From NCBI GenBank assembly GCA_011911785.1, contig GCA_011911785.1_4084.1: a stretch of DNA of 64,000 nucleotides; one strand, given 5' to 3'. The position numbers and the translations under genes are program-made. This DNA is from a phage. A model generated the notes under the pieces. That model was not told where the DNA came from and did no database searches. It saw nothing but the letters and a program-made list of their open reading frames with translations. This document shows positions 16,269 to 59,437 of this stretch, one piece after another (position 1 is the stretch's first letter; each line of letters opens with the position of its first letter).

Positions 16269-16459
16269 ACGTCGAGTTGATTGAAAAAAAGTACTGTACA
16301 AATTGCAATACAGCGTATACAATACAAGGTATGTTAGTTTGTACAACATGTCAGGCAACAGAAACAGCAACATTTTTGGTTGATGACCGATTCAGTGATT
16401 TGAAACAATTCAAAGCTAATCGCAATCTCCGTAACTTTAGTGATATGAATAAGGAATGA
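16265..16459 (+). CDS. zinc-ribbon small protein (64 aa)
   Basis: CTNCNTAY...CTTCQ two CxxC pairs. Confidence 0.5.
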   Translation: MNVELIEKKYCTNCNTAYTIQGMLVCTTCQATETATFLVDDRFSDLKQFKANRNLRNFSDMNKE

Positions 16460-16893
16460 ATATGAATCTTGAACAAGTAATCCGTAACAACCCATTCTTC
16501 GCAGAAAACCCTTCTCGTGTAATTGAAGCGATTAAAGTTGAAGAGCTAATGATTACCGTCAAATATAAAGAAGAAGGTGATGAAATTAGTAGCGTAGTAT
16601 GTGCTCTTCGTGCACCTTTCCGTAAAGAAGCAGCTAAGAAACCAGCATATGTACTATCTATCTGCTTGGGTTGTGTAGTTAAACTGGTTGTTGATGAAAA
16701 TAGTTTCAACATCAAGGTTGCACCAACTAATGATGATGAGAATGTTGATCTCAACTTTGATGGTGGGTTGCCAGAAGAAGAATTCTTCCAACAGTCACTT
16801 GTTGTAGATTTCCGTTCAGTAACTTATGACCATATCAAACTAATCAATGAAATGGTTGATATCGTCGCTAAGTTCGAAGAAGAAACCGCATAA
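16456..16893 (+). CDS. EEYFQ-motif family protein (family A)
   Basis: C-terminal PEEEFFQQSLVVDF...YDHIKLINEMV. Confidence 0.65.
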   Translation: MNMNLEQVIRNNPFFAENPSRVIEAIKVEELMITVKYKEEGDEISSVVCALRAPFRKEAAKKPAYVLSICLGCVVKLVVDENSFNIKVAPTNDDENVDLNFDGGLPEEEFFQQSLVVDFRSVTYDHIKLINEMVDIVAKFEEETA

Positions 16894-16904
16894 TATAAAA
16901 AGAA

Positions 16905-16938
16905 ATAAGGCTCTCAATCGGGAGCCTTATATTCATTT
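16905..16938 (+). terminator. putative intrinsic terminator
   Basis: AGGCTCTC-loop-GGGAGCCT hairpin then T-rich. Confidence 0.5.
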
Positions 16939-16970
16939 GTTAAATAAGACAAAGTAAAGGAGTACTTAAT

Positions 16971-17522
16971 ATGATCGAACAAATTCAAAAATTCACGAAC
17001 CAAATTGTAAATTTCCTAGCAGATAAAGAAGGATTCAGTACTGAAGTTACACATCACGGTGTTAACCTTAACGTTACTGCACCAAGCGGTGATGTAACGT
17101 CATATGACATGTATGAGTTATTGCTTTATACAATGGCAGTACGCAAAATAGGTTCTGATATAGAGCTAAACATCAATACTGATGACAAAGGGAACAATAT
17201 TTTTGCTATTAATACGGATGCTAAACTTGATGTAATTGCAGAAATTCAAAAAATTAACGAGTCATTTATTAATTTCCAACATGATACGATACAATCCGTT
17301 TTTATTGGTCATCAAACATCTGAAAGTGTTTGCCCTTTTTGTGTAATGACTCTCTATAAGAATGGTAATTGGATGCGTCATGATTTGGCTAAAGCTGAAG
17401 TTCTTTATGCCATTACACATGGTATGAAACTTGAACTAGATGACAGTGCTTTTGTCTTTAAGAAACTAAGAAAATTAACACTAGATGTTCAGACTAAATT
17501 AAAAGAACTTAATGATAAATAA
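16971..17522 (+). CDS. hypothetical protein (183 aa)
   Basis: RBS aaaggagtacttaatATG. Confidence 0.6.
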   Translation: MIEQIQKFTNQIVNFLADKEGFSTEVTHHGVNLNVTAPSGDVTSYDMYELLLYTMAVRKIGSDIELNINTDDKGNNIFAINTDAKLDVIAEIQKINESFINFQHDTIQSVFIGHQTSESVCPFCVMTLYKNGNWMRHDLAKAEVLYAITHGMKLELDDSAFVFKKLRKLTLDVQTKLKELNDK

Positions 17523-17631
17523 TTATGCCAGTAATGGCTAACATATTATTATGTTATTTTTCCTCCCTTCTATAATAAAATTAATTTATTATATTTTCCA
17601 TTTCTTATTGTACATTTTATATCTTTTCGTA

Positions 17632-17655
17632 CTGCCCCTCCCAGGGGCATTTTTT
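17632..17655 (+). terminator. intrinsic terminator
   Basis: TGCCCC-loop-GGGGCA hairpin followed by TTTTTT. Confidence 0.6.
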
Positions 17656-17670
17656 ATATTAGGATAAAGT

Positions 17671-18066
17671 ATGTTAGGTAGTAGAATAGGCAGCATCGTC
17701 ACAATTAAACTTTCTTATTATCTAAATGATTTTTCAAAGATCGATTTATCAAAATATCAGCAATCATCATTCTATTATGAATCATCTGAGCATAAATTTT
17801 CTATCAGCAAAGAACCGGTAAAACTAAAGTATCAGGGGGTTGCAGAAAAGAATGAATTCGTGTATGATTATGGTATGGACAAAATTGTATTCACTGAATA
17901 TACTAAGGGTACAAGACCTACATGGAAAGCGGATTATCATAGAAAATCATTCATCAATATACATAAGTATCTTGACGAAGAGCATTACTTTCAACAGTTG
18001 CTTTTGGAGGATTTACCATTCACTATTGATGATCTAAAAACATTATTTAAGTACTATGCGATATAG
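17671..18066 (+). CDS. EEYFQ-motif family protein (family A)
   Basis: C-terminal DEEHYFQQLLLEDLPFTIDDLKTLF. Confidence 0.6.
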   Translation: MLGSRIGSIVTIKLSYYLNDFSKIDLSKYQQSSFYYESSEHKFSISKEPVKLKYQGVAEKNEFVYDYGMDKIVFTEYTKGTRPTWKADYHRKSFINIHKYLDEEHYFQQLLLEDLPFTIDDLKTLFKYYAI

Positions 18067-18083
18067 TACTAAAGGAGATACAT

Positions 18084-18518
18084 ATGATTATATCATTCAA
18101 AAAAGTACTAAAATATTTCCAAAATAATAAACTTAAAGATATGAAAGTACGTGTCAATTTCTTTGCTAAAAGTGTGTGGTTTTGTACAGAGGATGAAATT
18201 AAGGTTAATGTAAGATTAACTGATTCATATGAAATAATTCGCCTGTACGCAACCATTGATGGTGTGGATACCAAGATATCATACATTTCAACGAGTGGTA
18301 CGTTGATCATGAGTACGCGAGAAAATGAAACTGATACATTCAATGAAATTAAGATAGAAAACATCCATGAAATCACATCTGAAGAGATACTATTTCAACG
18401 TTCACTTGTTGACAATGTACTAGATTTAACATATGATAATATCATACTAATTCACAAACTGCATGATGAGGCAAAAGCGTTTGCTCTAACCAAATTCGGA
18501 GAATTGGATGATAAGTGA
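18084..18518 (+). CDS. EEYFQ-motif family protein (family A)
   Basis: C-terminal TSEEILFQRSLVDNVLDLTYDNIILI; RBS aaggagatacatATG. Confidence 0.65.
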   Translation: MIISFKKVLKYFQNNKLKDMKVRVNFFAKSVWFCTEDEIKVNVRLTDSYEIIRLYATIDGVDTKISYISTSGTLIMSTRENETDTFNEIKIENIHEITSEEILFQRSLVDNVLDLTYDNIILIHKLHDEAKAFALTKFGELDDK

Positions 18519-18933
18519 CCTGTTGAATATTGATATCACTAAACTAAAAATTACCGATTGTGGTATGTGTGTCAATGATAAACGTAAGATTGATTATGCT
18601 ATACTTACTGATGGCAATAAATCTCTTTGGTATGATAAATCTGTAGGAATTCAATTTAGACATAGTTCTAGTACTGAAAAGTATTCAGAGACATTAGATT
18701 ACATAAGTAATGGTAGTATTATCTATGTAAAATATTCAGAATCTGGAAAAATTACAAATACCATTACATTCAATGAAAAGAAGTACTCTGAAGAAGAATT
18801 CTTTATGGTTAGTACTTTGTATGATTTTGGGTGTATCAGGTACTGTGATTATGTTAAAACATTGGACATTTCCAATAAGATCTATTCAATACTTGAGCAA
18901 TATGAAAAGGAGATTGTAGATGACAGTAAGTAA
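18508..18933 (+). CDS. EEYFQ-motif family protein (divergent)
   Basis: C-terminal SEEEFFMVSTLYDF (Q replaced). Confidence 0.5.
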   Translation: MISDLLNIDITKLKITDCGMCVNDKRKIDYAILTDGNKSLWYDKSVGIQFRHSSSTEKYSETLDYISNGSIIYVKYSESGKITNTITFNEKKYSEEEFFMVSTLYDFGCIRYCDYVKTLDISNKIYSILEQYEKEIVDDSK

Positions 18934-19330
18934 ATGTTACATTATCATTCGTGAAGACTTAGATATGCCAGTTGGGAAGCTTGCTGCTCAGGCGGGTCAT
19001 GCGGTTGATTCTATCTGGTCCACGATTACCGTTGCTGGTACATCAATTCGTGGTTGTAATGCTGTTGGTGAGAACCCAAGAGATGAAGATGAAAAGATCC
19101 TGAACGATTTCAGTACTTGGGTACAGGACGGTCGTCGCAAGATTATCTTAAAGGCTAAATCTGAAGAACAGATGCTTAATCTATTCGATAAAGTGAAAGC
19201 TGAAGGATTCACTGCAACTAAGATTCATGATTATGGATTCAACCATTTTGATGGTCTAACATTAACTGGATTCGTTGTGTTCCCGTGCACTGACGAAGTT
19301 AAAGCATTGAAAAGGGTAAGATTATGGTAG
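18920..19330 (+). CDS. PTH2-family peptidyl-tRNA hydrolase
   Basis: IIIREDLDM-PVGKLAAQAGHA resembles the PTH2 signature (R.DL.M..GK.AAQ..HA). Confidence 0.7.
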   Translation: MTVSKCYIIIREDLDMPVGKLAAQAGHAVDSIWSTITVAGTSIRGCNAVGENPRDEDEKILNDFSTWVQDGRRKIILKAKSEEQMLNLFDKVKAEGFTATKIHDYGFNHFDGLTLTGFVVFPCTDEVKALKRVRLW

Positions 19331-19704
19331 ATGAATTGGATAGAAAAATTGATGCTTTGTATAAATCAATTGAAACCAATGAGGTTACTGTATATTATGG
19401 GAGACAGAGTGTACAACAATCAAATTCATGTTTACGTTTAACCATAACCTTAGATTCAAGAGATAATCCATATACTTGTGTTTTCAAAGAAAGAAACACA
19501 ATTGAATGGATTGGTTGGTATATAGATGACCGTCTTTCATACCTTTATGATTTTGAAAATTATGATGGTTCAGAAGTTTACTTGAATTCAACTGAAGAAG
19601 AATTATTTCAACTATCATTAATTGAAAAACATGTAATGTCATATGACAATTTACAAAAAATCAAGTCAATAATGAATTATGCTCTATCTAAGGTAAAGCA
19701 ATGA
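19324..19704 (+). CDS. EEYFQ-motif family protein (family A)
   Basis: C-terminal STEEELFQLSLIEKHVMSYDNLQKI. Confidence 0.65.
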   Translation: MVDELDRKIDALYKSIETNEVTVYYGRQSVQQSNSCLRLTITLDSRDNPYTCVFKERNTIEWIGWYIDDRLSYLYDFENYDGSEVYLNSTEEELFQLSLIEKHVMSYDNLQKIKSIMNYALSKVKQ

Positions 19705-20141
19705 ACATTAAATTAGTTAAAAAATATATCAGTACTTTTAATAAAATTAAATTTATCAACGATGGTTTGACTGATCCTGAAGAACAAATTAAAAATACCA
19801 CATACGTAGGTCAGAATTGCTTTAAGATTATTATTGAAAATAATGTATTATCATTATCAGTTAATAATCTGGTATATGGTGATCAGATGTATATCGTGCA
19901 CAATGTTAATAACAATAACTTAGAAATTATGCTTCGTGATGATAATGTTATCAAAATATATCAGGTACAAAATGTAAGTGAATGCACTACTGAAGAGGGG
20001 TATTTCCAGGAATCACTGGTTCAAACATTTAATATTGATTTCAAGGATTTAAAATATCTCATGAGTACGCTAACAAAAATGCGTTCAGCTATCTTTAACA
20101 TCTTTTTTATTGATGAACAGCGACAAATGGATGTAAAATGA
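19701..20141 (+). CDS. EEYFQ-motif family protein (family A)
   Basis: C-terminal TTEEGYFQESLVQTFNIDFKDLKYL. Confidence 0.65.
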   Translation: MNIKLVKKYISTFNKIKFINDGLTDPEEQIKNTTYVGQNCFKIIIENNVLSLSVNNLVYGDQMYIVHNVNNNNLEIMLRDDNVIKIYQVQNVSECTTEEGYFQESLVQTFNIDFKDLKYLMSTLTKMRSAIFNIFFIDEQRQMDVK

Positions 20142-20560
20142 ACCCAAGAGATTGTTTTGATTTGTTAAAGGGAATGCCTATAGATTCACTAGTACCTGAT
20201 AATAGGTTTGAGCACAATCTTGATTTTCATGGTGAAAATTACAATGTATATATAAGCTACAGTGATGATGAGAGTGAAGAACTAACATTTGTGTTCATTT
20301 ATAATGTTTTTGAAGGTGATAAGTTGTTGGATGTTGAAATTGCATCATATACTGTCACAAATCAATACGTTATCGAAGATGAACTTCGCAACAAATTTGA
20401 TATAACACTGTACAGTACTGAAGAAGAGTTGTTTCAGTTAAGTACTATCAGTGATGTGTGCACAACCGTCGAAGAGTTAGCAGACGTTAAGAAAATCATT
20501 GACACTGTGTACAACAAGATATACAATACATTCCATATTGAGAAACAATTGAAAGGGTAA
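20138..20560 (+). CDS. EEYFQ-motif family protein (family A)
   Basis: C-terminal STEEELFQLSTISDVCTTVEELADV. Confidence 0.65.
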   Translation: MNPRDCFDLLKGMPIDSLVPDNRFEHNLDFHGENYNVYISYSDDESEELTFVFIYNVFEGDKLLDVEIASYTVTNQYVIEDELRNKFDITLYSTEEELFQLSTISDVCTTVEELADVKKIIDTVYNKIYNTFHIEKQLKG

Positions 20561-20564
20561 CACA

Positions 20565-20825
20565 GTGACTACAGTAGTTCGTAAACGCCACATGATGAAC
20601 ATGGATGAATTCCGTACATTTGACAAATATCGCACTATGTTTCGTATGCTGACACAGGGGCGTCCAATTGTCATTGTAACAGAAAATTACATGTCACCTG
20701 AAATCATGTTTGGTAATTATGAAAAGGTTTTCATGTTGTATGTGAAGCGTGGATTATTAACTATCAAGACCTTAGCAGAAGCAACTGATGAAGACATGGA
20801 TGGTGATAACACGTTTACCATGTGA
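20565..20825 (+). CDS. hypothetical protein (86 aa)
   Basis: ORF with GTG start. Confidence 0.4.
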   Translation: MTTVVRKRHMMNMDEFRTFDKYRTMFRMLTQGRPIVIVTENYMSPEIMFGNYEKVFMLYVKRGLLTIKTLAEATDEDMDGDNTFTM

Positions 20826-20901
20826 GGAACTATGAGCGAAAAACCAAAAGAACCATTAGACCGTGATGATGATTACTACGACGAACGTTATGGTGATAAA
20901 G

Positions 20902-21153
20902 ATGAGTGAACATAGTGCAGTGCTAAAAAAGATTTTAAATGATCTGGGTAGTGAAATTGAAGTTTCAGACGAAGAATATGAATTTTGGAAAAAGGATTTT
21001 GAACAACTGTCCGAGAGTGATAAAGTGTTCAATATGATTGGTGTTGTCAGTCAGTACTTACTCGGTGGTGGTCGTGCTAGTGCTTCAATCCTTGCATCGG
21101 CAATCATCTGTACTGCCCGATGGTGTCAAGAAAAAAGTATTGACGATTTCTAA
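20902..21153 (+). CDS. hypothetical protein (83 aa)
   Basis: Start refined to ATG 20902. Confidence 0.45.
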   Translation: MSEHSAVLKKILNDLGSEIEVSDEEYEFWKKDFEQLSESDKVFNMIGVVSQYLLGGGRASASILASAIICTARWCQEKSIDDF

Positions 21154-21211
21154 ATTAGGAGATATAATGTTTGTATCAGAGAGAAAGAATGTATAAGGAA
21201 TTATATTTTGC

Positions 21212-21240
21212 TTGACAATGGAGCAATAATATTATACAAT
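21212..21240 (+). promoter_or_regulatory. sigma70-like promoter
   Basis: TTGACA, 17 nt, TACAAT. Confidence 0.5.
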
Positions 21241-21384
21241 TAATCAATCTTATACAACGAGGAAACTCCAATTGAAATATGTAATACTCCTTATTCCAGT
21301 GGGGTCATTCCGTGAAATTCTACCTACTGATGTACTGGATGGTCTTAAAAAGAGAAATCCACATAAGTTTTAAATAGTATTAAA

Positions 21385-21425
21385 AAGGACAATACTGGGC
21401 GAATATTCGTCCAGTATTTTATTTT
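21385..21425 (+). terminator. putative terminator (imperfect hairpin)
   Basis: ACTGGGCG-loop-CGTCCAGT then T-rich tract. Confidence 0.35.
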
Positions 21426-21439
21426 ATAAAGGATTATAG

Positions 21440-22300
21440 ATGGAACCGATACGTGTACTATCTTTGTTCAATGGGATGAGTGTAGGATATATTGCATTAC
21501 AAAATGCTGGTATAGCAGTTGATAAGTACTACTCATCTGAAATTGACAAATTTGCTATAGCTGAATCCCAGGCTAACTTTCCTGATATCATCCAATTGGG
21601 TGATGTAACCAAATGGAAGGAATGGGATATCGAATGGGACAAGATAGATCTACTGATGGGGGGTTTCCCTTGCCAAGCATGGTCAGTGGCGGGTAAACAA
21701 GGTGGATTAACTGATATCCGTGGTCAACTATTTCTGGTTATGGTTGATATATTCAATCATATTAAAAGTTTAAATCCTAACTTGAAATTCTTATTCGAGA
21801 ATGTTAAGATGAAGGAAGATTTCAAGGAATATATCAATGGTATATTGCAACTAACCCCAGTACTGATAAACTCCCAGCATTACACGCCTCACTTCAGGCA
21901 ACGTTACTACTGGTACAGTACTGATAAGTTATTCATACCACCTGCAATATCCAAAGCCCCAAAGCTTCAAGATATACTTGATGATGGTTGGTACACAGAC
22001 AGAACCGCTTCGTACTGTATTGATGCCAATTACTTCAAGGGTGGAGATCCGAATCAGTACTTCAATAAGTCAAGAAGACAAATCGTTTTCAAAGACCCTG
22101 ATATCAACAGGAACTTCCTGATTGAGAAGGGTAAACGAAATGTGGACTATCGACATTTGACAGTGCAAGAGTGTTGCATTTTACAGGGAGTTGATGTAAA
22201 CTATTTCAAAGTGTCAAGTAACACACAAGCGTACAAAATGCTTGGTAATGGCTGGACAGCACCTGTTATAGAACATTTACTTCGTGATATATTCTTTTAA
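21440..22300 (+). CDS. DNA (cytosine-5)-methyltransferase
   Basis: Motif IV GGFPCQAWSVAG, motif VI FENVKM, motif VIII-like RQRYYW, motif I-like LFNGMSVG; short (286 aa). Confidence 0.8.
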   Translation: MEPIRVLSLFNGMSVGYIALQNAGIAVDKYYSSEIDKFAIAESQANFPDIIQLGDVTKWKEWDIEWDKIDLLMGGFPCQAWSVAGKQGGLTDIRGQLFLVMVDIFNHIKSLNPNLKFLFENVKMKEDFKEYINGILQLTPVLINSQHYTPHFRQRYYWYSTDKLFIPPAISKAPKLQDILDDGWYTDRTASYCIDANYFKGGDPNQYFNKSRRQIVFKDPDINRNFLIEKGKRNVDYRHLTVQECCILQGVDVNYFKVSSNTQAYKMLGNGWTAPVIEHLLRDIFF

Positions 22301-22315
22301 CCATTAGAGGCACAA

Positions 22316-23700
<1,385 letters not shown>

Positions 23701-23704
<4 letters not shown>

Positions 23705-24144
23705 CAGTACTGCACCAATTAAAGAAAGTTAAACATCCGGTAGTTTATAATGATTGGCTACGCCAGAAGGAGATGGGGGACTTTTACTACCCAAAGTCTA
23801 AAGTACTGGCAACGTCAAAAACTATATACCTGAAATATAACGATGAAGATTGTTTGTGTATTCAAATGGGATTCCATCCTAAAGTTGGATTGTTTACATC
23901 AAATCAAACATTTTATAAATTTAGAATTCAAAAAGATACATTTAGTATTCACATTGAAAAGCATGACGTAGAAGATACAATATATCGTGTGGAAAGTGAG
24001 CCTTTGAATCTTGTTGGGATTCCGTACAATAATTTAGAAGAAATGTACTTTCAGCAGTTGACAATACAAGAAGACTTTGGTATGATAGGACTTCAAGAGT
24101 TAGAGATGATTAAACAAATTCGTGATATCTACTTTAAGGAGTAA
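23701..24144 (+). CDS. EEYFQ-motif family protein (family A)
   Basis: C-terminal NLEEMYFQQLTIQEDFGMIGLQELEMI; ATGA overlap. Confidence 0.6.
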
Positions 24145-28843: not shown

Positions 28844-29413
28844 ATGAACTTTATTAAATTCAACTCATCTGAGTCAGAATCATACTTTAATACAAATAAT
28901 AAATTTAATATTATTCTTAAAGACGGAACGGTTGTTATCGGAGTATCATTGCTTTCATTTGATGGCGAAAAACTCAAAACTGTTTATAAATTCACCAATC
29001 TTGATGGTGATTACTGGGATACGTCAGATGTATCTAAAATTTGCACACATTATGTATTTGAATCTATTGAAGTTGGTGATGGCTGGGCATTGACCTGTAA
29101 TGGTAATAAAGTATTTTCTGGTAACATATTTGGGGTAATTTCCAGTAAAGAAATCGTAGACCATCATCTTCATGTTCTCAATAATAACGCCAACACTTAT
29201 ACACCTGATAATATCAAAATTCACGATATTGTAACATATACTGATTATAATGGTTTCAGACATAAAGCAATTGTAACTGAAGTTAAAAAACCAAAAAATT
29301 ATTTCGACCACGGTTTAATTGAAGTATATATGGTAGGTGGCGAAAAACAATACTTTGATCATTTCACTTATACTGGTTGGGATAGATTCCTAACCGTTGT
29401 TGAGGAATACTAA
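28844..29413 (+). CDS. hypothetical protein (189 aa)
   Basis: RBS actaaggagaacatATG. Confidence 0.6.
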   Translation: MNFIKFNSSESESYFNTNNKFNIILKDGTVVIGVSLLSFDGEKLKTVYKFTNLDGDYWDTSDVSKICTHYVFESIEVGDGWALTCNGNKVFSGNIFGVISSKEIVDHHLHVLNNNANTYTPDNIKIHDIVTYTDYNGFRHKAIVTEVKKPKNYFDHGLIEVYMVGGEKQYFDHFTYTGWDRFLTVVEEY

Positions 29414-29414
29414 C

Positions 29415-29891
29415 ATGCCAATTCGTGGTATACCAGAACCATTAAGTGAAGTTCTTAAGAATGTCAATGTTGGAACACGAGAAGTTAATCAGCGACGTGG
29501 TAATATATATTACTTTAAAACTACAGGAATGAGTTCTATACAGGTTGTTATTGGCACATCTATTACGGTCACGCGTGTTCTTGATGGTAGTACTGACTTC
29601 GTTGGATACAATGTACTTACTAATAAAGTAACACATACATATAAATGGAGTGGTTATAAAACCATCACATATGAGTTTGACTTAGCTAGAACTGAAGAAG
29701 AACGATTTATGTTGAGTACTATTAATCCAGCAAACTATCCTGACCTTGATGCATTTTTGCTAATTTTAAAATTGTATAATGAAGCAAATGAGAAAGCTAA
29801 AGAGTATGATAGAATCATGTATGAACGTAGAAAAGAACGTTCTCAAAAAAGTTATGATCTGTATGAAAGTTACATTCATAGATCCAAATGA
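29415..29891 (+). CDS. EEYFQ-motif family protein (divergent)
   Basis: Start refined to ATG 29415; C-terminal RTEEERFMLSTINPANYPDLDAFL. Confidence 0.5.
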   Translation: MPIRGIPEPLSEVLKNVNVGTREVNQRRGNIYYFKTTGMSSIQVVIGTSITVTRVLDGSTDFVGYNVLTNKVTHTYKWSGYKTITYEFDLARTEEERFMLSTINPANYPDLDAFLLILKLYNEANEKAKEYDRIMYERRKERSQKSYDLYESYIHRSK

Positions 29892-31464: not shown

Positions 31465-32464
<1,000 letters not shown>

Positions 32465-32474
32465 TTAAAAAAAG

Positions 32475-33412
<938 letters not shown>

Positions 33413-33429
33413 CTGTAGTATTCAGTACT

Positions 33430-33621
<192 letters not shown>

Positions 33622-33622
33622 A

Positions 33623-33680
<58 letters not shown>

Positions 33681-33685
33681 CAATC

Positions 33686-33841
<156 letters not shown>

Positions 33842-33870
33842 CAAAAACGAAATTACAATAGGAAATTAAA

Positions 33871-34056
33871 ATGCAACTTTTAATTCTTTCAATATTGTAT
33901 ATTATTATAATGGTTCCGATATCAATACGTTTAATTACAGTTGAACGATTTTTATCGAAACATGGAAATAGGTCTATGATCTTTGTACCAATCGGTCTGA
34001 TATTGTTTGGTATATTTGCATTTATAATGGGAATTAACGCTACATTCATTTCATAG
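33871..34056 (+). CDS. small membrane protein (61 aa)
   Basis: ORF with two hydrophobic segments downstream of tRNA-Asn. Confidence 0.45.
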   Translation: MQLLILSILYIIIMVPISIRLITVERFLSKHGNRSMIFVPIGLILFGIFAFIMGINATFIS

Positions 34057-34065
34057 GAAACAAAT

Positions 34066-34547
<482 letters not shown>

Positions 34548-34554
34548 AAGAACG

Positions 34555-34587
<33 letters not shown>

Positions 34588-34588
34588 C

Positions 34589-34644
<56 letters not shown>

Positions 34645-34645
34645 T

Positions 34646-34879
<234 letters not shown>

Positions 34880-34882
34880 TGT

Positions 34883-35227
<345 letters not shown>

Positions 35228-35228
35228 T

Positions 35229-35657
<429 letters not shown>

Positions 35658-35665
<8 letters not shown>

Positions 35666-36020
35666 TCTAATAGTACGTATAATGCAAGATGTTCGAAAGA
35701 ACCTTTATACAGGCAATTTTGACGATTCGAACATTAAACTATTATGTTATGATGGTTTTACCTTGGTACATCCATCTGAATCAAATAATATATACATATC
35801 ATATACTTCCAAAAATCAATTATATCAATTTGATATATATAGCACAATGGCTAAAATAACTTTGGACGTATCCAAGCAGCCTATTCTTATCGCTGTACCA
35901 GAATGCAATTACACTGAAGAATCACTGTTTCAGTACTCAATGATAAATGACATTGGCGACTTGACATTAGAAGAGATTAACGCTATACTAGATGTATCAC
36001 GTTTGATTAATGCCTACTAA
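35658..36020 (+). CDS. EEYFQ-motif family protein (family A)
   Basis: C-terminal YTEESLFQYSMINDIGDLTLEEINAIL. Confidence 0.6.
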
Positions 36021-36832: not shown

Positions 36833-37228
36833 ATGAATTTGGTTGTAGAAGACGATATCTTTTCCGATGCTATTGAGTATATGTACAATCTTGTTAGACT
36901 TAATGAATTTGTACAACGTCATACATTGACACATAAGGATGGGATTATTACTGTTGGTGCATACATTAATGGATACTTAACCGAGTTTTACAATTGTGAT
37001 AACATTTTTATAACCATTGATAACATCACTACGACTAATGACATATCCATTGATTTATTCAAAGATCATATTGAAATTGATATAGACAAGATGATTGCCA
37101 TCGATATCGATCCTGTAATGTATGAGTTACAAGAAGAAATGTATGAGCAATTATGCTTTGTGTATGATTTGAGTAAAATTTCATTCTTTGACTTACGCAG
37201 AATCTGTTACGTAGTAGGTAAGTTATGA
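36833..37228 (+). CDS. EEYFQ-motif family protein (divergent)
   Basis: Start refined to ATG 36833 (RBS taaggagaacaccATG); C-terminal LQEEMYEQLCFVYDLSKISFFDLRRI. Confidence 0.5.
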   Translation: MNLVVEDDIFSDAIEYMYNLVRLNEFVQRHTLTHKDGIITVGAYINGYLTEFYNCDNIFITIDNITTTNDISIDLFKDHIEIDIDKMIAIDIDPVMYELQEEMYEQLCFVYDLSKISFFDLRRICYVVGKL

Positions 37229-37698
37229 CAAATATACGTGATGTATTAATGCAGTACGGTATCAGTGCTGAAATGCTTTCAGATGAAATTATTAAAAACT
37301 CTAAGATAGAATTTATGTTTAATAGACACCGTTATCCAGGTGTTTATATTAATCGATCCTGTTCATTAATTTACTTTGAATACATGGATGAATATGTTAT
37401 CATTGAAGAAATCAAACTCAATGGATGGCACTGTACAATTGAGTTAACGAAACCAAGAACCAAGAACAAAATAGTGATTAGTATTAATATCTATTACGAT
37501 ATTAGTACTGAAGATGGAGCCTCACACTTTGTTCGAGTTTTGTCATCTGATGATAATTTAAAGTTAGATTATAAATCAGAAGAAGAATACTTTCAGGAAA
37601 GTTTAATCAATGATTTAGTTTTTGATTATAACTTTTATAAAGAACTATCAAAAAACTTCGTTGAATGTATCAAACTATATGAGGAAGAGGACGAATGA
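37225..37698 (+). CDS. EEYFQ-motif family protein (family A)
   Basis: C-terminal KSEEEYFQESLINDLVFDYNFYKEL. Confidence 0.65.
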   Translation: MTNIRDVLMQYGISAEMLSDEIIKNSKIEFMFNRHRYPGVYINRSCSLIYFEYMDEYVIIEEIKLNGWHCTIELTKPRTKNKIVISINIYYDISTEDGASHFVRVLSSDDNLKLDYKSEEEYFQESLINDLVFDYNFYKELSKNFVECIKLYEEEDE

Positions 37699-38114
37699 AA
37701 AATTATAAGTTAAGTACAGAATACAATGAAATGATCATCAATGCACTTGATAATCATGGTGAGTTTCGTTATCCAGGTGAAGGATTGAACGTTTACTTCG
37801 GAGATGAAAACTGGTGCTATCTGAATAATGGTGTTCTGACTATCCATATTCAGGATATTAAAAGTGATGTATCATTTGGAATTCACCTAGTTCCCGGTAC
37901 ATTGGTTAATGACGCACGTATCAATGTTATTGTCAATGAGAACGAATTCTTTCATGATGATTTTGAAGATGTTAAAATGGCAGCTAGTAAGATGTATACT
38001 ACTGAAGAAGAGTACTTTCAGGATAGTACTGTGAAAGATATGCGAATCCCTTATGAGTTGATGGTTTCAGTACAGAAATTTATTGAGGATTTCAGATGCG
38101 ATTTGATCAAGTAG
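37695..38114 (+). CDS. EEYFQ-motif family protein (family A)
   Basis: C-terminal TTEEEYFQDSTVKDMRIPYELMVSV. Confidence 0.65.
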   Translation: MKNYKLSTEYNEMIINALDNHGEFRYPGEGLNVYFGDENWCYLNNGVLTIHIQDIKSDVSFGIHLVPGTLVNDARINVIVNENEFFHDDFEDVKMAASKMYTTEEEYFQDSTVKDMRIPYELMVSVQKFIEDFRCDLIK

Positions 38115-38563
38115 TTAATCGTGAGTACTTGGGTCGTATGGTGGGTGCTGCAATTGACATGATGGTAAAAAAGATGTGCCGTTATCATCCATCACAATGG
38201 AATGCTTCATATAGCATTGAGATATATGCATATAAACTTCATGGGGCTGCAACTTCATTTGAGAAAATTCACTCATTGAGGCTTCACATGTACAGGGGAA
38301 CCGAACGTACATACACTGTAATTGTGAATTCCGGTGGTGTTACATTACATTTAACACCATTTAATGCTGTTAATTTGGATTTAAGTTCAGTTATTGAGAG
38401 CACAGAAATCTGTCACATTGAAGTTGGTGCTAATTATCATCCATTAACCGAAGAACAGTACTTCCAGATTCAAACTCTACATGATATCCATGACTTGACA
38501 TATGAAGAAATTCGTGATTTAATAAGATTAAGTGCAATGATTCCAAATAAGGGTACAGTGTGA
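38096..38563 (+). CDS. EEYFQ-motif family protein (family A)
   Basis: C-terminal LTEEQYFQIQTLHDIHDLTYEEIRDLI. Confidence 0.65.
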   Translation: MRFDQVVNREYLGRMVGAAIDMMVKKMCRYHPSQWNASYSIEIYAYKLHGAATSFEKIHSLRLHMYRGTERTYTVIVNSGGVTLHLTPFNAVNLDLSSVIESTEICHIEVGANYHPLTEEQYFQIQTLHDIHDLTYEEIRDLIRLSAMIPNKGTV

Positions 38564-38666
38564 ACGACCACATAACTGTCTGATTTGAATGGGTTGACAT
38601 TTAACCAATGTAAAAGAATTGTTTCTATATGTAATCGAATTACATATGAGTACACGGAGATATAAA

Positions 38667-39113
38667 ATGGCATTTGGTAACATTGAAGAAGTACAACTAG
38701 TATTTGAAAACTGTGAAGTTCAAAACTTCAAGTTCACTGACATTCTGTACATGTATGTTGGTGATGAATCGCAACGTGCATATCGTTATGCTAATGGTTT
38801 GTCAATTGAATCAGTACTGAAGAAGTTTGCTATTGTCTTTAAGAAAGACACGGAGGCTGATTTTTACAACGGAACTTCATTGGTAGATCGCCTGTCAGAG
38901 CGTGATGTTACTCATGTTGTGTTCTTCGGTGCAAATGACAAAATGGCATCATATGTCATTGACTGGGGTGAATATGATTCATGTAATATGCAGTACTCAA
39001 TCAATCAGAGGTTGCAATTTACACCTGATGGACATATCATCTTCACAAGCAGTACAGAAGATATGATTAAGATTGATGCAGAAGAGATTGATTCTTTTGC
39101 GAGGTACATGTAA
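38667..39113 (+). CDS. hypothetical protein (148 aa)
   Basis: Start refined to ATG 38667 (RBS cggagatataaaATG). Confidence 0.55.
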   Translation: MAFGNIEEVQLVFENCEVQNFKFTDILYMYVGDESQRAYRYANGLSIESVLKKFAIVFKKDTEADFYNGTSLVDRLSERDVTHVVFFGANDKMASYVIDWGEYDSCNMQYSINQRLQFTPDGHIIFTSSTEDMIKIDAEEIDSFARYM

Positions 39114-39577
39114 TGCGTCCAGTACTGAAAGATATTAAATCCAGGAAATATTTTCCTGGGTTTATGGAGTACATCATTGGGTTAGCTGAATCCAAGACTG
39201 GAAATAAAATTGATATCCAACTAGGTAATGTACTTATTTGTGCAAGATCTTATCGTAATAATTTCATGGACATTTTTGAAAGATCCAATTCGATTCTTGC
39301 ATCTCTTGATTTAGAGGGCTATTTAAATGCTAAATTCGTATTGGATATATACAGTCATGGGTTTTCAATAAGACCTTATAATTCACATTACAATGATGAT
39401 CCCAAAAACTTCTTTGTGCATGTAGAAAATGTTGACCAATTCACTGACCTTAGTGATGAAAGTTACTTTCAGATGCAGGTGGCATATGACCTACAGGACT
39501 TGACACGTCAAGAAATCAATGCTATCCTCTATGTATGTTCTAAATTGAAAGAAAATGAGGTAAGCGGTCGTGTCTAA
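39113..39577 (+). CDS. EEYFQ-motif family protein (family A)
   Basis: C-terminal SDESYFQMQVAYDLQDLTRQEINAIL. Confidence 0.65.
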   Translation: MRPVLKDIKSRKYFPGFMEYIIGLAESKTGNKIDIQLGNVLICARSYRNNFMDIFERSNSILASLDLEGYLNAKFVLDIYSHGFSIRPYNSHYNDDPKNFFVHVENVDQFTDLSDESYFQMQVAYDLQDLTRQEINAILYVCSKLKENEVSGRV

Positions 39578-50095: not shown

Positions 50096-50890
50096 ATGAG
50101 TACTATCGATGAATTGATTCGACGGAATTCAAAATATTACCAACCATCAGAAATTGTGGATAATATTACTAAATCTGAGTTTGGACCTAATACTCGCAAA
50201 CTCATTCATGTAATGTCTCGTGACGGCTTTAAATGTGATTGTTGTGGTGAATCCAATGTAGTATTCACTTTACATAAGCACAGTACTAAAGAACGTTATA
50301 AATTCAGACCTTATGTACTTAAAGGGAAACGTCTTGTACGCATGACGTTAGACCATAATGTACTGGACTGTCTCCAGGGTGGTAATGATAAAGAAAACAT
50401 GACTGCACTGTGTGAGGATTGTAATGCCTTACGCCAGCATAAGTTCGCAGAGTACAGCGAGTTTAAGTACTGGTATCATAATGCAGACCGTTCAATTGAG
50501 CCTAATGTAAACTACTGCTTCATTGAGTACATCAAGAATGCAAAAGATACATACATTCTTAAATCCATGTCTCCGATTACAGTGTTTCCTGAGAATCTAT
50601 TCAGTACTATGGAGCGTGATTTTAAGCGTGGTATCATCAATGCATTCAAGCACTTAGACAAAGGTATCAAACACTTTGATGTTGAATGTTTAAATTCAGG
50701 TATGAATCGTTTAGTACAAATTTACATGAAATCGTTTATAGGTATTGACAGTGCACGACTACCAGTATATAATTACTTTATTGAAAGCGTAGAAGGTGAA
50801 TCACTTCGTGATTATGGTGAAAGATTTAATAAGAAAGTCTTCACTGCAATAGCAAATGAGATTCATTACTATAAACCATATGTAATTTAA
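50096..50890 (+). CDS. HNH endonuclease (possible homing endonuclease)
   Basis: Start refined to ATG 50096 (RBS gaggaaatctaaaATG); CDCCGE...LDHNVLD...GGND...N...LCEDCNALR. Confidence 0.6.
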   Translation: MSTIDELIRRNSKYYQPSEIVDNITKSEFGPNTRKLIHVMSRDGFKCDCCGESNVVFTLHKHSTKERYKFRPYVLKGKRLVRMTLDHNVLDCLQGGNDKENMTALCEDCNALRQHKFAEYSEFKYWYHNADRSIEPNVNYCFIEYIKNAKDTYILKSMSPITVFPENLFSTMERDFKRGIINAFKHLDKGIKHFDVECLNSGMNRLVQIYMKSFIGIDSARLPVYNYFIESVEGESLRDYGERFNKKVFTAIANEIHYYKPYVI

Positions 50891-53492: not shown

Positions 53493-53693
53493 ATGTTTAC
53501 TTTATATCTAGCCGTAGTACTAACAAATGGTGAAATCACACGTACATTAGGTGACGGTGTATATAAAACACCTGAGCAGTGTTATTCTGCGACACACTGG
53601 CCTCGTGATGCTGGTGAAGAAACTCGTACCGAATACAAATGTATGAAGGTCAAAGGTGACTTTGTTAACCTTAAGGTCATTGAGGTGAAGTAG
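53493..53693 (+). CDS. putative small secreted protein (66 aa)
   Basis: N-terminal hydrophobic segment. Confidence 0.5.
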   Translation: MFTLYLAVVLTNGEITRTLGDGVYKTPEQCYSATHWPRDAGEETRTEYKCMKVKGDFVNLKVIEVK

Positions 53694-54199
53694 TGAATCT
53701 TAGTACTGATAAGTTTGTAAAGTTCATAGAGTTTATCAACTTCAATGAGAGCTACAATGGTACGTACAATACTATGAATATTGTATCTGATAAAGTATTT
53801 GATAGTACAATGTTCTATTTGTATGATACAAACGGTGATAAGCTGTGTGATGTTACATTCGGTATTGGTGATCTTTTTGAATCTGCGGTTTATCTATCTA
53901 AACCAACGGTGCGTGATACATATGAAATTCACTTTCATAATAGACCGAATCACAAAAACATTGTAGAATATGATATACCATCATCACACGAACTGTTCAT
54001 TGTAGATTACAGTACTGAAGAGGGTGTATTTCAAAGTTCATTGCTATACAACTTTGAACTACACGATCCTGATATTCCTAAAGTACTGGCAATTTCCAAT
54101 AAGGTATGTGAATTGCCATATAACATATACATGTCAGTTCCTGGTAAAAGAGTAGGTAATTTCTGTAAAGCCTTTGACATACAAGCGGATGATAAATGA
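53693..54199 (+). CDS. EEYFQ-motif family protein (family A)
   Basis: GTG start; C-terminal STEEGVFQSSLLYNFELHDPDIPKVL. Confidence 0.55.
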   Translation: MNLSTDKFVKFIEFINFNESYNGTYNTMNIVSDKVFDSTMFYLYDTNGDKLCDVTFGIGDLFESAVYLSKPTVRDTYEIHFHNRPNHKNIVEYDIPSSHELFIVDYSTEEGVFQSSLLYNFELHDPDIPKVLAISNKVCELPYNIYMSVPGKRVGNFCKAFDIQADDK

Positions 54200-57443: not shown

Positions 57444-57450
57444 TTAAAAA

Positions 57451-57476
57451 AGGTTGACTAACGTCAGCCTTTTTTG
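57451..57476 (+). terminator. intrinsic terminator (composite module type)
   Basis: AGGTTGAC-TAAC-GTCAGCCT hairpin then TTTTT; TTGACT in 5' arm; weak -10-like TTATAC 17 nt downstream. Confidence 0.7.
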
Positions 57477-57513
57477 TTATACTTATTCCATATTAATTGA
57501 ATAGGTGCACATC

Positions 57514-58858: not shown

Positions 58859-59437
58859 ATGAACCGTAAAGGTAAGTTTAAAGTATCAAAGAAGAATAAA
58901 AGTGGAAGGTTCAATGATATATGCTTAGGTTTTATCAAAGCACACAATAAACTTTCTGCCCTGAGTAGAAAGATAGTATCTAACAAGATTGATATTAGAT
59001 ATATAAGTACTAACAATAGTACAGGGAAAGATGCACATCCAACTGAAAATATTATTTCAGTATCCTTCGTATACGATGGTCTGGACATTACGATAGATGA
59101 TTACAGACGATACGGTACTGGGTTTATACGTATCTATTGCAGAGATGCATCTGATAAGCCGGAACGTATTCGTATTATCGGTACATTGAGTGCTGGTATA
59201 TTTGAGTGGGAGATTGTTCAACTTAAAACTATCGATGAGTACACCACAAGTTCTAATATTATTGAGTTGAATTGTAATGTGAAAGACCTCCCAAACTTGA
59301 GCGAAGAAGAATATTTTCAAGAAAGCTTGCTAACGCCAAATTTGGATGATATAATTAAACAATATAAGACAATGGTGTACTTCTTCAAATGTATCAAACC
59401 TAAGACTTGTTTGATGAATATTGTCCGTGATCTATAA
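58859..59437 (+). CDS. EEYFQ-motif family protein (family A)
   Basis: C-terminal SEEEYFQESLLTPNLDDIIKQYKTM. Confidence 0.6.
   Translation: MNRKGKFKVSKKNKSGRFNDICLGFIKAHNKLSALSRKIVSNKIDIRYISTNNSTGKDAHPTENIISVSFVYDGLDITIDDYRRYGTGFIRIYCRDASDKPERIRIIGTLSAGIFEWEIVQLKTIDEYTTSSNIIELNCNVKDLPNLSEEEYFQESLLTPNLDDIIKQYKTMVYFFKCIKPKTCLMNIVRDL

What the first reader, a model, noticed from the sequence alone, without database searches (positions are those of the whole stretch)
18920..19330. PTH2-type peptidyl-tRNA hydrolase embedded in the family A array
The GK-AAQ-HA signature matches the archaeal/eukaryotic-type Pth2 rather than bacterial Pth. Together with the tRNA cluster it suggests the phage manipulates or rescues translation, for example by recycling peptidyl-tRNA during stalling or countering a translation-targeting defence. 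Its position inside the paralog array suggests co-expression.
Basis: partly seen in the sequence, partly recalled or inferred. Interest (0 to 1): 0.6.

Follow-up and report, generated by a model that had tools for sequence, protein, structure and literature searches.

The report
Jumbo-phage Pth2 peptidyl-tRNA hydrolase gene
The ORF is a real archaeal/eukaryotic-type (PTH2) peptidyl-tRNA hydrolase gene of an A4-like E. coli jumbo phage with the catalytic residues kept, but it is already annotated in GenBank and noted in the jumbo-phage literature, so it is ordinary.

Summary
Window 18920-19330 (+) is a 136-aa ORF with a Shine-Dalgarno site. It matches Pfam PTH2 (E 2.5e-18, 66.8 bits, cut-off 23) and solved archaeal Pth2 structures (2zv3, E 3e-13). 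The AlphaFold model is confident (pLDDT 90.2), and its 14 best PDB matches are all Pth2 chains. The family-invariant residues are kept, including K20 and D104, which align with catalytic K18 and D86 of S. solfataricus Pth2.

It differs from canonical Pth2 in three ways:
- About 20 extra residues lengthen helices 1 and 2.
- The conserved Thr of the D-x-G-x-T motif is Asn.
- It scores below NCBIfam's equivalog cut-offs.

It lies inside a real, very divergent paralog array: 7 flanking members and 19 in the window. The same arrangement occurs in RaK2-like phages and EJP2, while phAPEC6 has the array without Pth2.

Across 52 viral PTH2 loci, 28 have a tRNA or tmRNA within 10 kb and 15 within 600 nt.

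The window is 96-99% identical to Escherichia phage A4, where this gene (A4_114) is already annotated as peptidyl-tRNA hydrolase. RaK2, CBB and XacN1 genome papers and a 2021 jumbo-phage review already discuss it. Its role in infection is untested.

Verdict: already known, low interest.

The parts
18920..19330 (+). Pth2 (PTH2-family peptidyl-tRNA hydrolase) CDS, 136 aa. Identical in protein sequence to Escherichia phage A4 A4_114 / USL83781.1.
   Evidence: ORF; Pfam PF01981 E 2.5e-18; PDB 2zv3 E 3.4e-13; model pLDDT 90.2 and Foldseek matches to Pth2 structures; 100% identity to the A4 protein annotated 'peptidyl-tRNA hydrolase'.
18908..18912 (+). Shine-Dalgarno-like AGGAG, 7 nt upstream of the ATG. 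It lies inside the 3' end of the upstream gene.
   Evidence: Read directly from the sequence.
18977..18979 (+). Codon for Lys20 of the G-K motif, equivalent to catalytic Lys18 of S. solfataricus Pth2.
   Evidence: Alignment A3 with the verified 1xty sequence. K at this column in 160 of 161 family sequences.
19229..19231 (+). Codon for Asp104 of the D-x-G motif, equivalent to catalytic Asp86 of S. solfataricus Pth2.
   Evidence: Alignment A3. D in 161 of 161 sequences.
19241..19243 (+). Codon for Asn108, where most PTH2 proteins have Thr (S. solfataricus T90). A substitution typical of this phage clade.
   Evidence: T in 138, N in 18 and S in 2 of 161 sequences; alignments A1 and A3.
19031..19099 (+). 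Clade-specific insertion (about aa 38-60) that lengthens helices alpha1 and alpha2 into a protruding hairpin with an acidic tip (ENPRDEDEK).
   Evidence: Gap against 2zv3 in the HMMER alignment. Columns gapped in 40-78% of 161 homologues. Model helices at 18-48 and 55-69.
16456..18933 (+). Upstream part of the paralog array: members at 16456-16893, 17671-18066, 18084-18518 and 18508-18933. The ORF at 16971-17522 is not a member.
   Evidence: Iterative HMM and an independent model built from distal members only; BLASTP pairs.
19324..20560 (+). Downstream part of the paralog array: members at 19324-19704, 19701-20141 and 20138-20560, with overlapping start and stop codons.
17633..17649 (+). Terminator-like GC hairpin plus T-run upstream of the block. 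Possible 5' boundary of the transcription unit.
   Evidence: a consensus scan only; 4 sites found against 2.6 expected.
21391..21418 (+). Terminator-like hairpin downstream of the block, before the DNA cytosine methyltransferase gene.
31777..35217 (+). Phage tRNA cluster: Ser-tga, Gly-tcc, Ser-gct, Met-cat, Asn-gtt, Thr-tgt. It starts 12.4 kb downstream and is interspersed with further members of the same paralog family.

Best explanation
The gene encodes an active PTH2-type peptidyl-tRNA hydrolase of an A4-like Asteriusvirus jumbo phage. Using the conserved Lys20/Asp104 site, it cleaves the ester bond between a peptide (or an N-blocked amino acid) and tRNA. That returns tRNA from dropped-off peptidyl-tRNA to the free pool. 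It is made together with a block of small, fast-evolving paralogous genes, probably as one transcript with translational coupling. It supplements the host's single essential Pth1 during infection. Demand may be high then, because the AT-rich phage genome carries hundreds of short ORFs and a codon usage that also calls for phage tRNAs; this last point is my own reasoning. What is shown: family membership, fold, conserved active-site residues, position in the array, conservation of that position in related phages, and linkage of viral PTH2 genes to tRNA/tmRNA genes. What is inferred: enzymatic activity, co-transcription, and the physiological role.
For: Family and fold: Pfam PTH2 66.8 bits against a cut-off of 23. 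PDB Pth2 hits. Model pLDDT 90.2, and its top 14 PDB matches are all Pth2.
Active site: R11, D13, K20, Q24, H27, W67, K74, D104, G106, T114, T116 and P122 are each the majority residue in at least 144 of 161 family sequences, and all are kept here. K20 and D104 align with K18 and D86 of 1xty.
Expression signals: good SD; overlapping neighbours; bracketing terminator-like sites.
Conservation: 59% identity to RaK2-like phages, 38-44% to GAP32, BF, CBB, Munch and EJP2. Klebsiella phage Muenster and EJP2 have the gene in the same place inside the array.
Translation context: 28 of 52 viral PTH2 loci have a tRNA or tmRNA within 10 kb, 19 within 1.5 kb and 15 within 600 nt, in several unrelated contig lineages. 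Cluster C mycobacteriophage tRNA arrays carry a PTH2-like gene.
Established knowledge (my own): archaeal Pth2 complements E. coli pth(ts) (Rosas-Sandoval et al. 2002), so the fold works on E. coli substrates. Pth-limited E. coli is sensitive to phage lambda bar minigenes.
Against: There is no experimental evidence for any phage Pth2 in the literature I could search. The protein scores below both NCBIfam Pth2 equivalog cut-offs (64.9 against 126; 63 against 82), so it is not a canonical orthologue. It has a roughly 20-aa insertion and a Thr-to-Asn change in the D-x-G-x-T motif, both of unknown effect. Its pI is 6.3 against 8.8 for S. solfataricus Pth2, and the tip of the insertion is acidic. 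phAPEC6 has the same array without Pth2, and only 2 Escherichia phage records (A4 and EJP2) match the protein by tblastn, against 31 Escherichia phage records that share DNA with this stretch. The gene is therefore dispensable for this kind of phage on E. coli. In this window the nearest tRNA is 12.4 kb away.
Confidence: 0.6

Rival explanations
1. Counter-defence enzyme. The phage Pth2 exists mainly to undo host immunity or toxins that act on charged tRNA. One route is hydrolysing N-acetyl-aminoacyl-tRNA made by GNAT toxins (TacT/AtaT/ItaT type). Another is freeing peptidyl-tRNA fragments and jammed ribosomes after anticodon-nuclease attack, as Iyer et al. 2021 proposed.
For: Iyer et al. 2021 propose exactly this for jumbo-phage PTH2. 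Pth reverses TacT acetylation of aminoacyl-tRNA. The gene is accessory and patchily distributed among close relatives, as anti-defence genes often are. It sits in an array of hypervariable small genes. Viral PTH2 genes lie next to tRNAs, which are themselves known to replace tRNAs that the host has cleaved (the tRNA replacement point is my own knowledge).
Against: No RNA-repair genes (RNA ligase, PNK) are annotated among the A4 genes corresponding to this window. There is no PADLOC or anti-defence profile match. No experiment links any phage Pth2 to a defence system. Host Pth1 already carries out the TacT detoxification.
Confidence: 0.25
2. A PTH2 fold with changed specificity. The insertion and the Thr-to-Asn change retarget the enzyme, for example to particular aminoacyl-tRNAs, to ribosome-bound peptidyl-tRNA, or to a non-tRNA ester. 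Alternatively the protein acts by binding rather than catalysis, for instance in host shut-off.
For: It scores below the equivalog cut-offs. The clade-specific insertion is conserved among close relatives (FTVAGTS.RGANA). N108 is typical of the clade. The protein is more acidic than archaeal Pth2. Only 12 of 1.84 billion representative proteins match at E<=1e-10, so this is a small, distinct clade.
Against: All residues invariant across the wider family, including both catalytic ones, are kept. Thr and Asn interchange within the clade: P0003 has Thr. The core superposes well on true Pth2 enzymes.
Confidence: 0.1
3. A chance ORF or a decaying relic with no function.
For: The gene is absent from phAPEC6 and, by tblastn, from most other Escherichia jumbo-phage records.
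Against: E 2.5e-18 to Pfam. An intact full-length domain. 34 invariant columns across clade members down to 42% identity. A proper SD. Both nucleotide differences from A4 are synonymous (too few to carry weight).
Confidence: 0.02

Closest known systems
Escherichia phage A4 gene A4_114 (USL83781.1), annotated 'peptidyl-tRNA hydrolase' (GenBank ON286972.1)
   Same: 100% identical protein. The surrounding 4 kb is 98.8% identical in DNA, with the same neighbours.
   Different: Nothing of substance. The window comes from a close relative of A4 (96-99% identity with a few indels), not from a different kind of phage.
PTH2 genes of RaK2-like jumbo phages: RaK2 ORF188, Muenster gp429, K64-1, GAP32, Serratia BF, CBB_392, Yersinia fHe-Yen9-04, Salmonella Munch
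   Same: Same long-form PTH2 clade (38-59% identity, 96-99% coverage). In Muenster the gene occupies the same position, inside the same paralog array and upstream of a DNA methyltransferase. These genes are described in the literature.
   Different: In GAP32-, BF- and CBB-like phages a tRNA-Leu(tag) gene lies 51-578 nt downstream of Pth2. Here the nearest tRNA is 12.4 kb away. The phAPEC6 locus has the array without the gene.
Archaeal/eukaryotic Pth2 (M. jannaschii MJ0051 2zv3; S. solfataricus 1xty; P. horikoshii 1wn2; human PTRH2/Bit1 1q7s)
   Same: Same fold (target-normalised TM 0.72-0.85). Same G-K...A-Q...H and D-x-G motifs, including the catalytic Lys and Asp.
   Different: Only 20-28% identity. 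About 20 extra residues extend helices 1 and 2. Asn replaces the conserved Thr. Below the NCBIfam equivalog cut-offs. More acidic. Encoded by a bacteriophage whose host uses Pth1.
PTH2-like genes in tRNA arrays of cluster C mycobacteriophages and other large phages
   Same: A viral PTH2 gene physically linked to tRNA or tmRNA genes.
   Different: Distant sequence relatives (about 30% identity). Those genes lie inside the tRNA array itself.
Bacterial Pth1 (E. coli Pth, PF01195)
   Same: The presumed reaction and substrate are the same, so this is a functional analogue (established knowledge).
   Different: Unrelated fold and catalytic residues (His20, Asn10, Asp93 in Pth1). The phage protein gives no Pth1 match.

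Membership tests
PTH2 family (Pfam PF01981) | Profile match above Pfam's gathering score over most of the domain | tested here: met
   66.8 bits against 23, E 2.5e-18, residues 5-126 on profile positions 2-103 of 115.
PTH2 family | Pth2 alpha/beta fold (four-stranded sheet packed by helices) | tested here: met
   AlphaFold model pLDDT 90.2, pTM 0.83, with strands at 5-11, 73-79, 99-104 and 114-123. The top 14 Foldseek PDB matches are all Pth2 chains, E 1.5e-8 to 2e-4, TMt 0.72-0.85 for crystal structures; the next match is at E 0.5. This is a prediction, not a solved structure.
PTH2 family | Catalytic Lys (S. solfataricus K18) and Asp (D86); their role is from Fromant et al. 2005, cited from my own knowledge | tested here: met
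   K20 and D104 align with K18 and D86 of the verified 1xty sequence. These columns hold K in 160/161 and D in 161/161 homologues.
PTH2 family | Conserved Thr of the D-x-G-x-T motif (S. solfataricus T90) | tested here: not met
   Asn108 here. T in 138, N in 18 and S in 2 of 161 sequences. Asn is typical of this phage clade, and one clade member has Thr. I do not know that this residue is essential, so this is a variant feature and not a disqualification.
Canonical archaeal Pth2 orthologue (NCBIfam equivalogs NF003314, TIGR00283) | Score above the curated equivalog cut-off | tested here: not met
   64.9 against 126, and 63 against 82. It should be filed as a divergent viral subfamily of PTH2, not as the archaeal equivalog.
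PTH2 family | Hydrolysis of peptidyl- or N-acyl-aminoacyl-tRNA; complementation of E. coli pth(ts) | not testable with these tools
   Needs a biochemical assay or genetics. I found no published test for any phage Pth2.
Bacterial Pth1 (PF01195) | Profile match and the His/Asn/Asp active site | tested here: not met
   A Pfam scan at E<=1 returned only PTH2. No Pth1 chains appear among the PDB hits.
Known anti-phage defence or anti-defence proteins (PADLOC-DB) | Profile match | tested here: not met
   No family at E<=0.1 for Pth2 or for three of the array paralogs.

The most novel reading that the evidence does not exclude
The long-form viral PTH2 clade (helical-hairpin insertion, Asn in place of the conserved Thr) is not a simple booster of tRNA recycling. 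It would be a specialised part of a phage translation-rescue module that works with phage tRNAs, suppressor tRNAs and tmRNAs to keep ribosomes running when the host attacks charged tRNAs or when the phage recodes stop codons. The insertion would direct it to a particular substrate or to the ribosome. My evidence does not exclude this. The tight linkage to tRNA, tmRNA and suppressor-tRNA genes across unrelated viral contigs and the patchy, accessory distribution fit it, but nothing here tests it.
Probability: 0.15. Interest if true: 0.55.

Novelty: already known. Interest (0 to 1): 0.15.

Why it matters
As an annotation, it matters little. The gene is correctly named in the near-identical GenBank record, and the presence of archaeal-type Pth2 in jumbo phages has been remarked on since 2013.

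What remains open is experimental. No phage Pth2 appears to have been assayed. It is unknown whether it simply relieves a tRNA-recycling bottleneck or counters tRNA-targeting immunity. A4-like phages and phAPEC6-type relatives offer a natural with/without comparison on E. coli, where pth(ts) strains and defined defence systems are available, so the question is easy to test.

Tried and rejected
1. Structure of the flanking paralog family, to learn what the array does. The AlphaFold model of 19324-19704 built with the 19 window paralogs reached only pLDDT 63.7, so I ran no fold search on it. Pfam gave nothing above threshold. PHROGs gave only 'unknown function' families. PADLOC gave nothing.
2. 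Recent horizontal transfer. The gene has the highest G+C of 86 ORFs of at least 100 aa in the window (40.6% against a mean of 34.2, sd 3.0). However, GC3 is only 34%, and synteny with RaK2-like phages argues for old residence. I read the G+C as amino-acid constraint, not as a foreign origin.
3. Purifying selection from the window/A4 comparison. There are only two differences, both synonymous, which is too few to use.
4. A hidden, diverged Pth2 in phAPEC6 (its gp131c is also 136 aa). The PTH2 HMM finds nothing in that locus; gp131c is a member of the paralog family.
5. Provenance in complete E. coli genomes: no match.
6. Cellular relatives of the long-form clade. A pattern scan of 185,579 species-representative genomes confirmed one weak relative (32% identity, in a MAG). 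The patterns were strict, so this is only a lower bound.
7. Literature on Pth2 catalytic residues. Powers et al. 2005 (PMC2253226) is not held, and the open reviews do not list the residues. The roles of K18 and D86 therefore rest on my own knowledge of Fromant et al. 2005, though the numbering was checked on the 1xty sequence.
8. The literature search was too broad and gave nothing useful.
9. The promoter scan found no more sites than in shuffled sequence (36 against 37.1), so I claim no promoter.

Full report
**Observation.** The window has an ORF at exactly 18920..19330 on the + strand: ATG start, 136 aa. An AGGAG sits 7 nt before the start codon. The ORF overlaps the upstream gene (18508..18933) by 14 nt and the downstream gene (19324..19704) by 7 nt. 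The small ORFs on the opposite strand and in other frames have no support.

**Identity.**
- Pfam returns a single family, PF01981 PTH2: E 2.5e-18, 66.8 bits against a gathering score of 23, covering residues 5-126. Bacterial Pth1 is not matched.
- PHROGs places the protein in phrog_1866, function 'unknown', at E 8.5e-30.
- NCBIfam's two Pth2 equivalog models are the best hits but fall well below their cut-offs: 64.9 against 126, and 63 against 82. The protein is therefore a divergent member and not a canonical archaeal orthologue.
- Against PDB sequences, seven Pth2 entries match, the best being M. jannaschii 2zv3 at E 3.4e-13. That alignment shows about 20 extra residues in the query between the first and second helices.
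- An AlphaFold model built on ten clade members is confident (pLDDT 90.2, pTM 0.83). It has the expected four strands and long helices at 18-48 and 55-69.
- Its 14 best Foldseek matches in the PDB are all Pth2 chains (2zv3, 1rlk, 3erj, 1wn2, 1q7s, 1xty, 1rzw). Target-normalised TM is 0.72-0.85 for the crystal structures. The next match has E 0.5.

**Active site.**
- I aligned the protein with 160 homologues from the two protein searches. The majority residue is R11 in 156 of 161 sequences, D13 in 155, K20 in 160, Q24 in 160, H27 in 161, W67 in 158, K74 in 157, D104 in 161, G106 in 153, T114 in 144, T116 in 158 and P122 in 154. The phage protein keeps every one of them.
- I checked that the S. 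solfataricus Pth2 sequence I recalled is exactly chain 1xty_A and aligned it with the phage protein. Phage K20 pairs with K18 and D104 with D86. That K18 and D86 are the catalytic residues is my own knowledge (Fromant et al. 2005); I could not read that paper here.
- The one departure in a conserved column is N108, where 138 of 161 sequences have Thr and 18 have Asn. Asn is typical of this phage clade, and one close relative has Thr.

**Provenance and prior knowledge.**
- The window is a close relative of Escherichia phage A4 (ON286972.1, Asteriusvirus, 355.5 kb, host E. coli LF82). It is 98.8% identical over 17500-21500 and 96-99% identical over the rest, with a few indels.
- The protein is 100% identical to A4_114, which the record already calls 'peptidyl-tRNA hydrolase'.
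- tblastn finds homologues in 40 phage records. Nearly all are RaK2-like jumbo phages: RaK2, K64-1 and Muenster at 59%; GAP32, BF and CBB at 40-44%; Munch at 44%; EJP2 at 38%. Several of these genes carry the same annotation.
- The literature already covers it. The RaK2 genome paper pointed out ORF188 as a type 2 Pth in 2013. The CBB paper lists CBB_392 with homologues in GAP32 and RaK2. XacN1 ORF295 is described. [quoted passage not shown]
- Cluster C mycobacteriophage tRNA arrays also carry a PTH2-like gene.
- I found no experimental test of any phage Pth2.

**How distinct the clade is.**
- In a library of 1.84 billion representative proteins, 566 match at E<=1e-3 but only 12 at E<=1e-10.
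- The word-indexed search gave ten close relatives, mostly unnamed metagenome proteins. The named ones among the representatives are phage proteins.
- A pattern scan of one genome per bacterial and archaeal species confirmed only one weak relative, in a MAG. The long form thus looks essentially viral, with the caveat that the patterns used were strict.

**The array.**
- The flanking ORFs are only weakly similar in pairwise BLASTP. An iterated HMM nonetheless collects 19 + strand ORFs of 117-192 aa in the window. They share a C-terminal (S/T)-E-E-x-x-F-Q-x-S motif and little else, with mean column identity of 17%.
- To avoid circularity I built a model from the 12 members that lie far from Pth2. 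It recovers all seven flanking ORFs at E 1e-9 to 6e-6. 'Embedded in the array' is therefore correct.
- The same family flanks Pth2 in Klebsiella phage Muenster and in Escherichia phage EJP2. In the typical Asteriusvirus phAPEC6 the syntenic array is present, upstream of the same conserved small gene and DNA methyltransferase, but has no Pth2.
- Only 2 Escherichia phage records (A4 and EJP2) match the protein by tblastn, against 31 Escherichia phage records that share DNA with this stretch. The gene is thus an accessory, dispensable member of a conserved neighbourhood.
- Terminator-like hairpins at 17633-17649 and 21391-21418 bracket the block. The promoter scan was no better than shuffled sequence. 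Co-transcription and translational coupling are reasonable inferences but are not shown.
- The array family has no Pfam or PADLOC match, and its predicted structure was too uncertain to use.

**Link to tRNAs.**
- In the window the six tRNA genes lie at 31777-35217, 12.4 kb downstream, so adjacency is not an argument here.
- Across viruses the link is strong. Of 52 IMG/VR loci encoding a PTH2 relative, 28 have a tRNA or tmRNA within 10 kb, 19 within 1.5 kb and 15 within 600 nt.
- In GAP32-, BF- and CBB-like contigs a tRNA-Leu(tag) gene follows Pth2 by 51-578 nt. In unrelated large contigs the nearest neighbour is often an amber-suppressor-type tRNA or a tmRNA.
- The loci are not independent and I had no whole-genome control, so I give no P value. 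For a genome of about 350 kb whose tRNAs span about 20 kb, a random gene would be within 1.5 kb of a tRNA roughly 5-10% of the time (my estimate).

**Mechanism.** The best-supported reading is an active peptidyl-tRNA hydrolase that supplements host Pth1 and keeps tRNA available during infection (confidence 0.6). This rests on four things:
- the intact active site;
- the fold;
- the translation-related genomic company of viral PTH2 genes;
- the established fact that archaeal Pth2 works in E. coli (my own knowledge).

The main rival is a counter-defence role against tRNA-acetylating toxins or anticodon nucleases (0.25). It fits the accessory distribution and the published hypothesis but has no direct support. 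A change of specificity driven by the insertion and the Thr-to-Asn change is possible (0.1). A non-functional ORF is essentially excluded.

**Other checks.**
- The gene's G+C (40.6%) is the highest among 86 ORFs in the window, but GC3 is ordinary. I attribute this to amino-acid constraint.
- The two nucleotide differences from A4 are synonymous.
- The protein is mildly acidic, pI 6.3 against 8.8 for S. solfataricus Pth2, and the tip of the insertion is acidic.

**Verdict.** The finding is an already annotated, already discussed gene of a known phage lineage, so it scores low for interest. The remaining value lies in the untested biology.

Noticed in passing
window 16456-20560, 22861-24144, 29397-29891, 32535-32888, 35234-36020, 37225-39577, 53693-54199, 58859-59437 (+ strand): A hyper-divergent paralog family of 19 small ORFs (117-192 aa). 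They share only a C-terminal (S/T)-E-E-x-x-F-Q-x-S motif, with mean column identity of 17%. They are interleaved with the tRNA genes and are conserved as a family in RaK2-like phages, EJP2 and phAPEC6. There is no Pfam or PADLOC match, PHROGs families are 'unknown function', and the AlphaFold model is poor (pLDDT 63.7). The function is unknown.
   Followed up: partly
window 21440-22300, compared with L001 11521-13419 (phage A4 gene A4_120): The C-5 cytosine DNA methyltransferase is 286 aa in the window but 632 aa in phage A4. The difference is an exactly in-frame 1035-bp (345-codon) insertion with Hint and LAGLIDADG domains, i.e. an intein with a homing endonuclease, starting about residue 77 of A4_120 (first Hint match). 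The window carries the intein-free allele.
   Followed up: partly
window 32922-32997; L003 5500-5575: A tRNA-Gly(tcc) gene is found by ARAGORN in the window and in the phage A4 sequence, but it is not annotated in the A4 GenBank record, which lists five tRNAs in this region.
   Followed up: yes
loci L008-L010, L013, L015, L016, L024, L025, L034, L039, L048, L052 (anticodon cta); L021, L036, L041, L054 (anticodon tca); tmRNA in L034, L036, L039, L041, L056: Many viral contigs that encode a PTH2 relative also carry suppressor-type tRNAs (amber CTA or opal TCA anticodons) or a tmRNA within a few kb of it, sometimes as its nearest neighbour. This may point to a link between viral Pth2 and stop-codon recoding or ribosome rescue. 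I did not test it against a background.
   Followed up: no
protein P0001 (99% identical to the window protein): NCBI labels this protein 'aminoacyl-tRNA hydrolase [Escherichia coli]', and it lies on a 357,761-bp contig, i.e. a whole A4-like jumbo phage genome inside a bacterial assembly. That fits the preprint reporting Asteriusvirus genomes as 'persistent virulent phages' in E. coli assemblies. There was no match among complete RefSeq E. coli genomes.
   Followed up: partly
window 32006-32138, 33534-33680, 34852-34942, 50115-50636, 57446-57493: The megablast alignment between the window and phage A4 breaks here, so there are small indels or replaced segments. They are concentrated in the tRNA region and near the A4 genes annotated as sigma-70-family sigma factors.
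   Followed up: no
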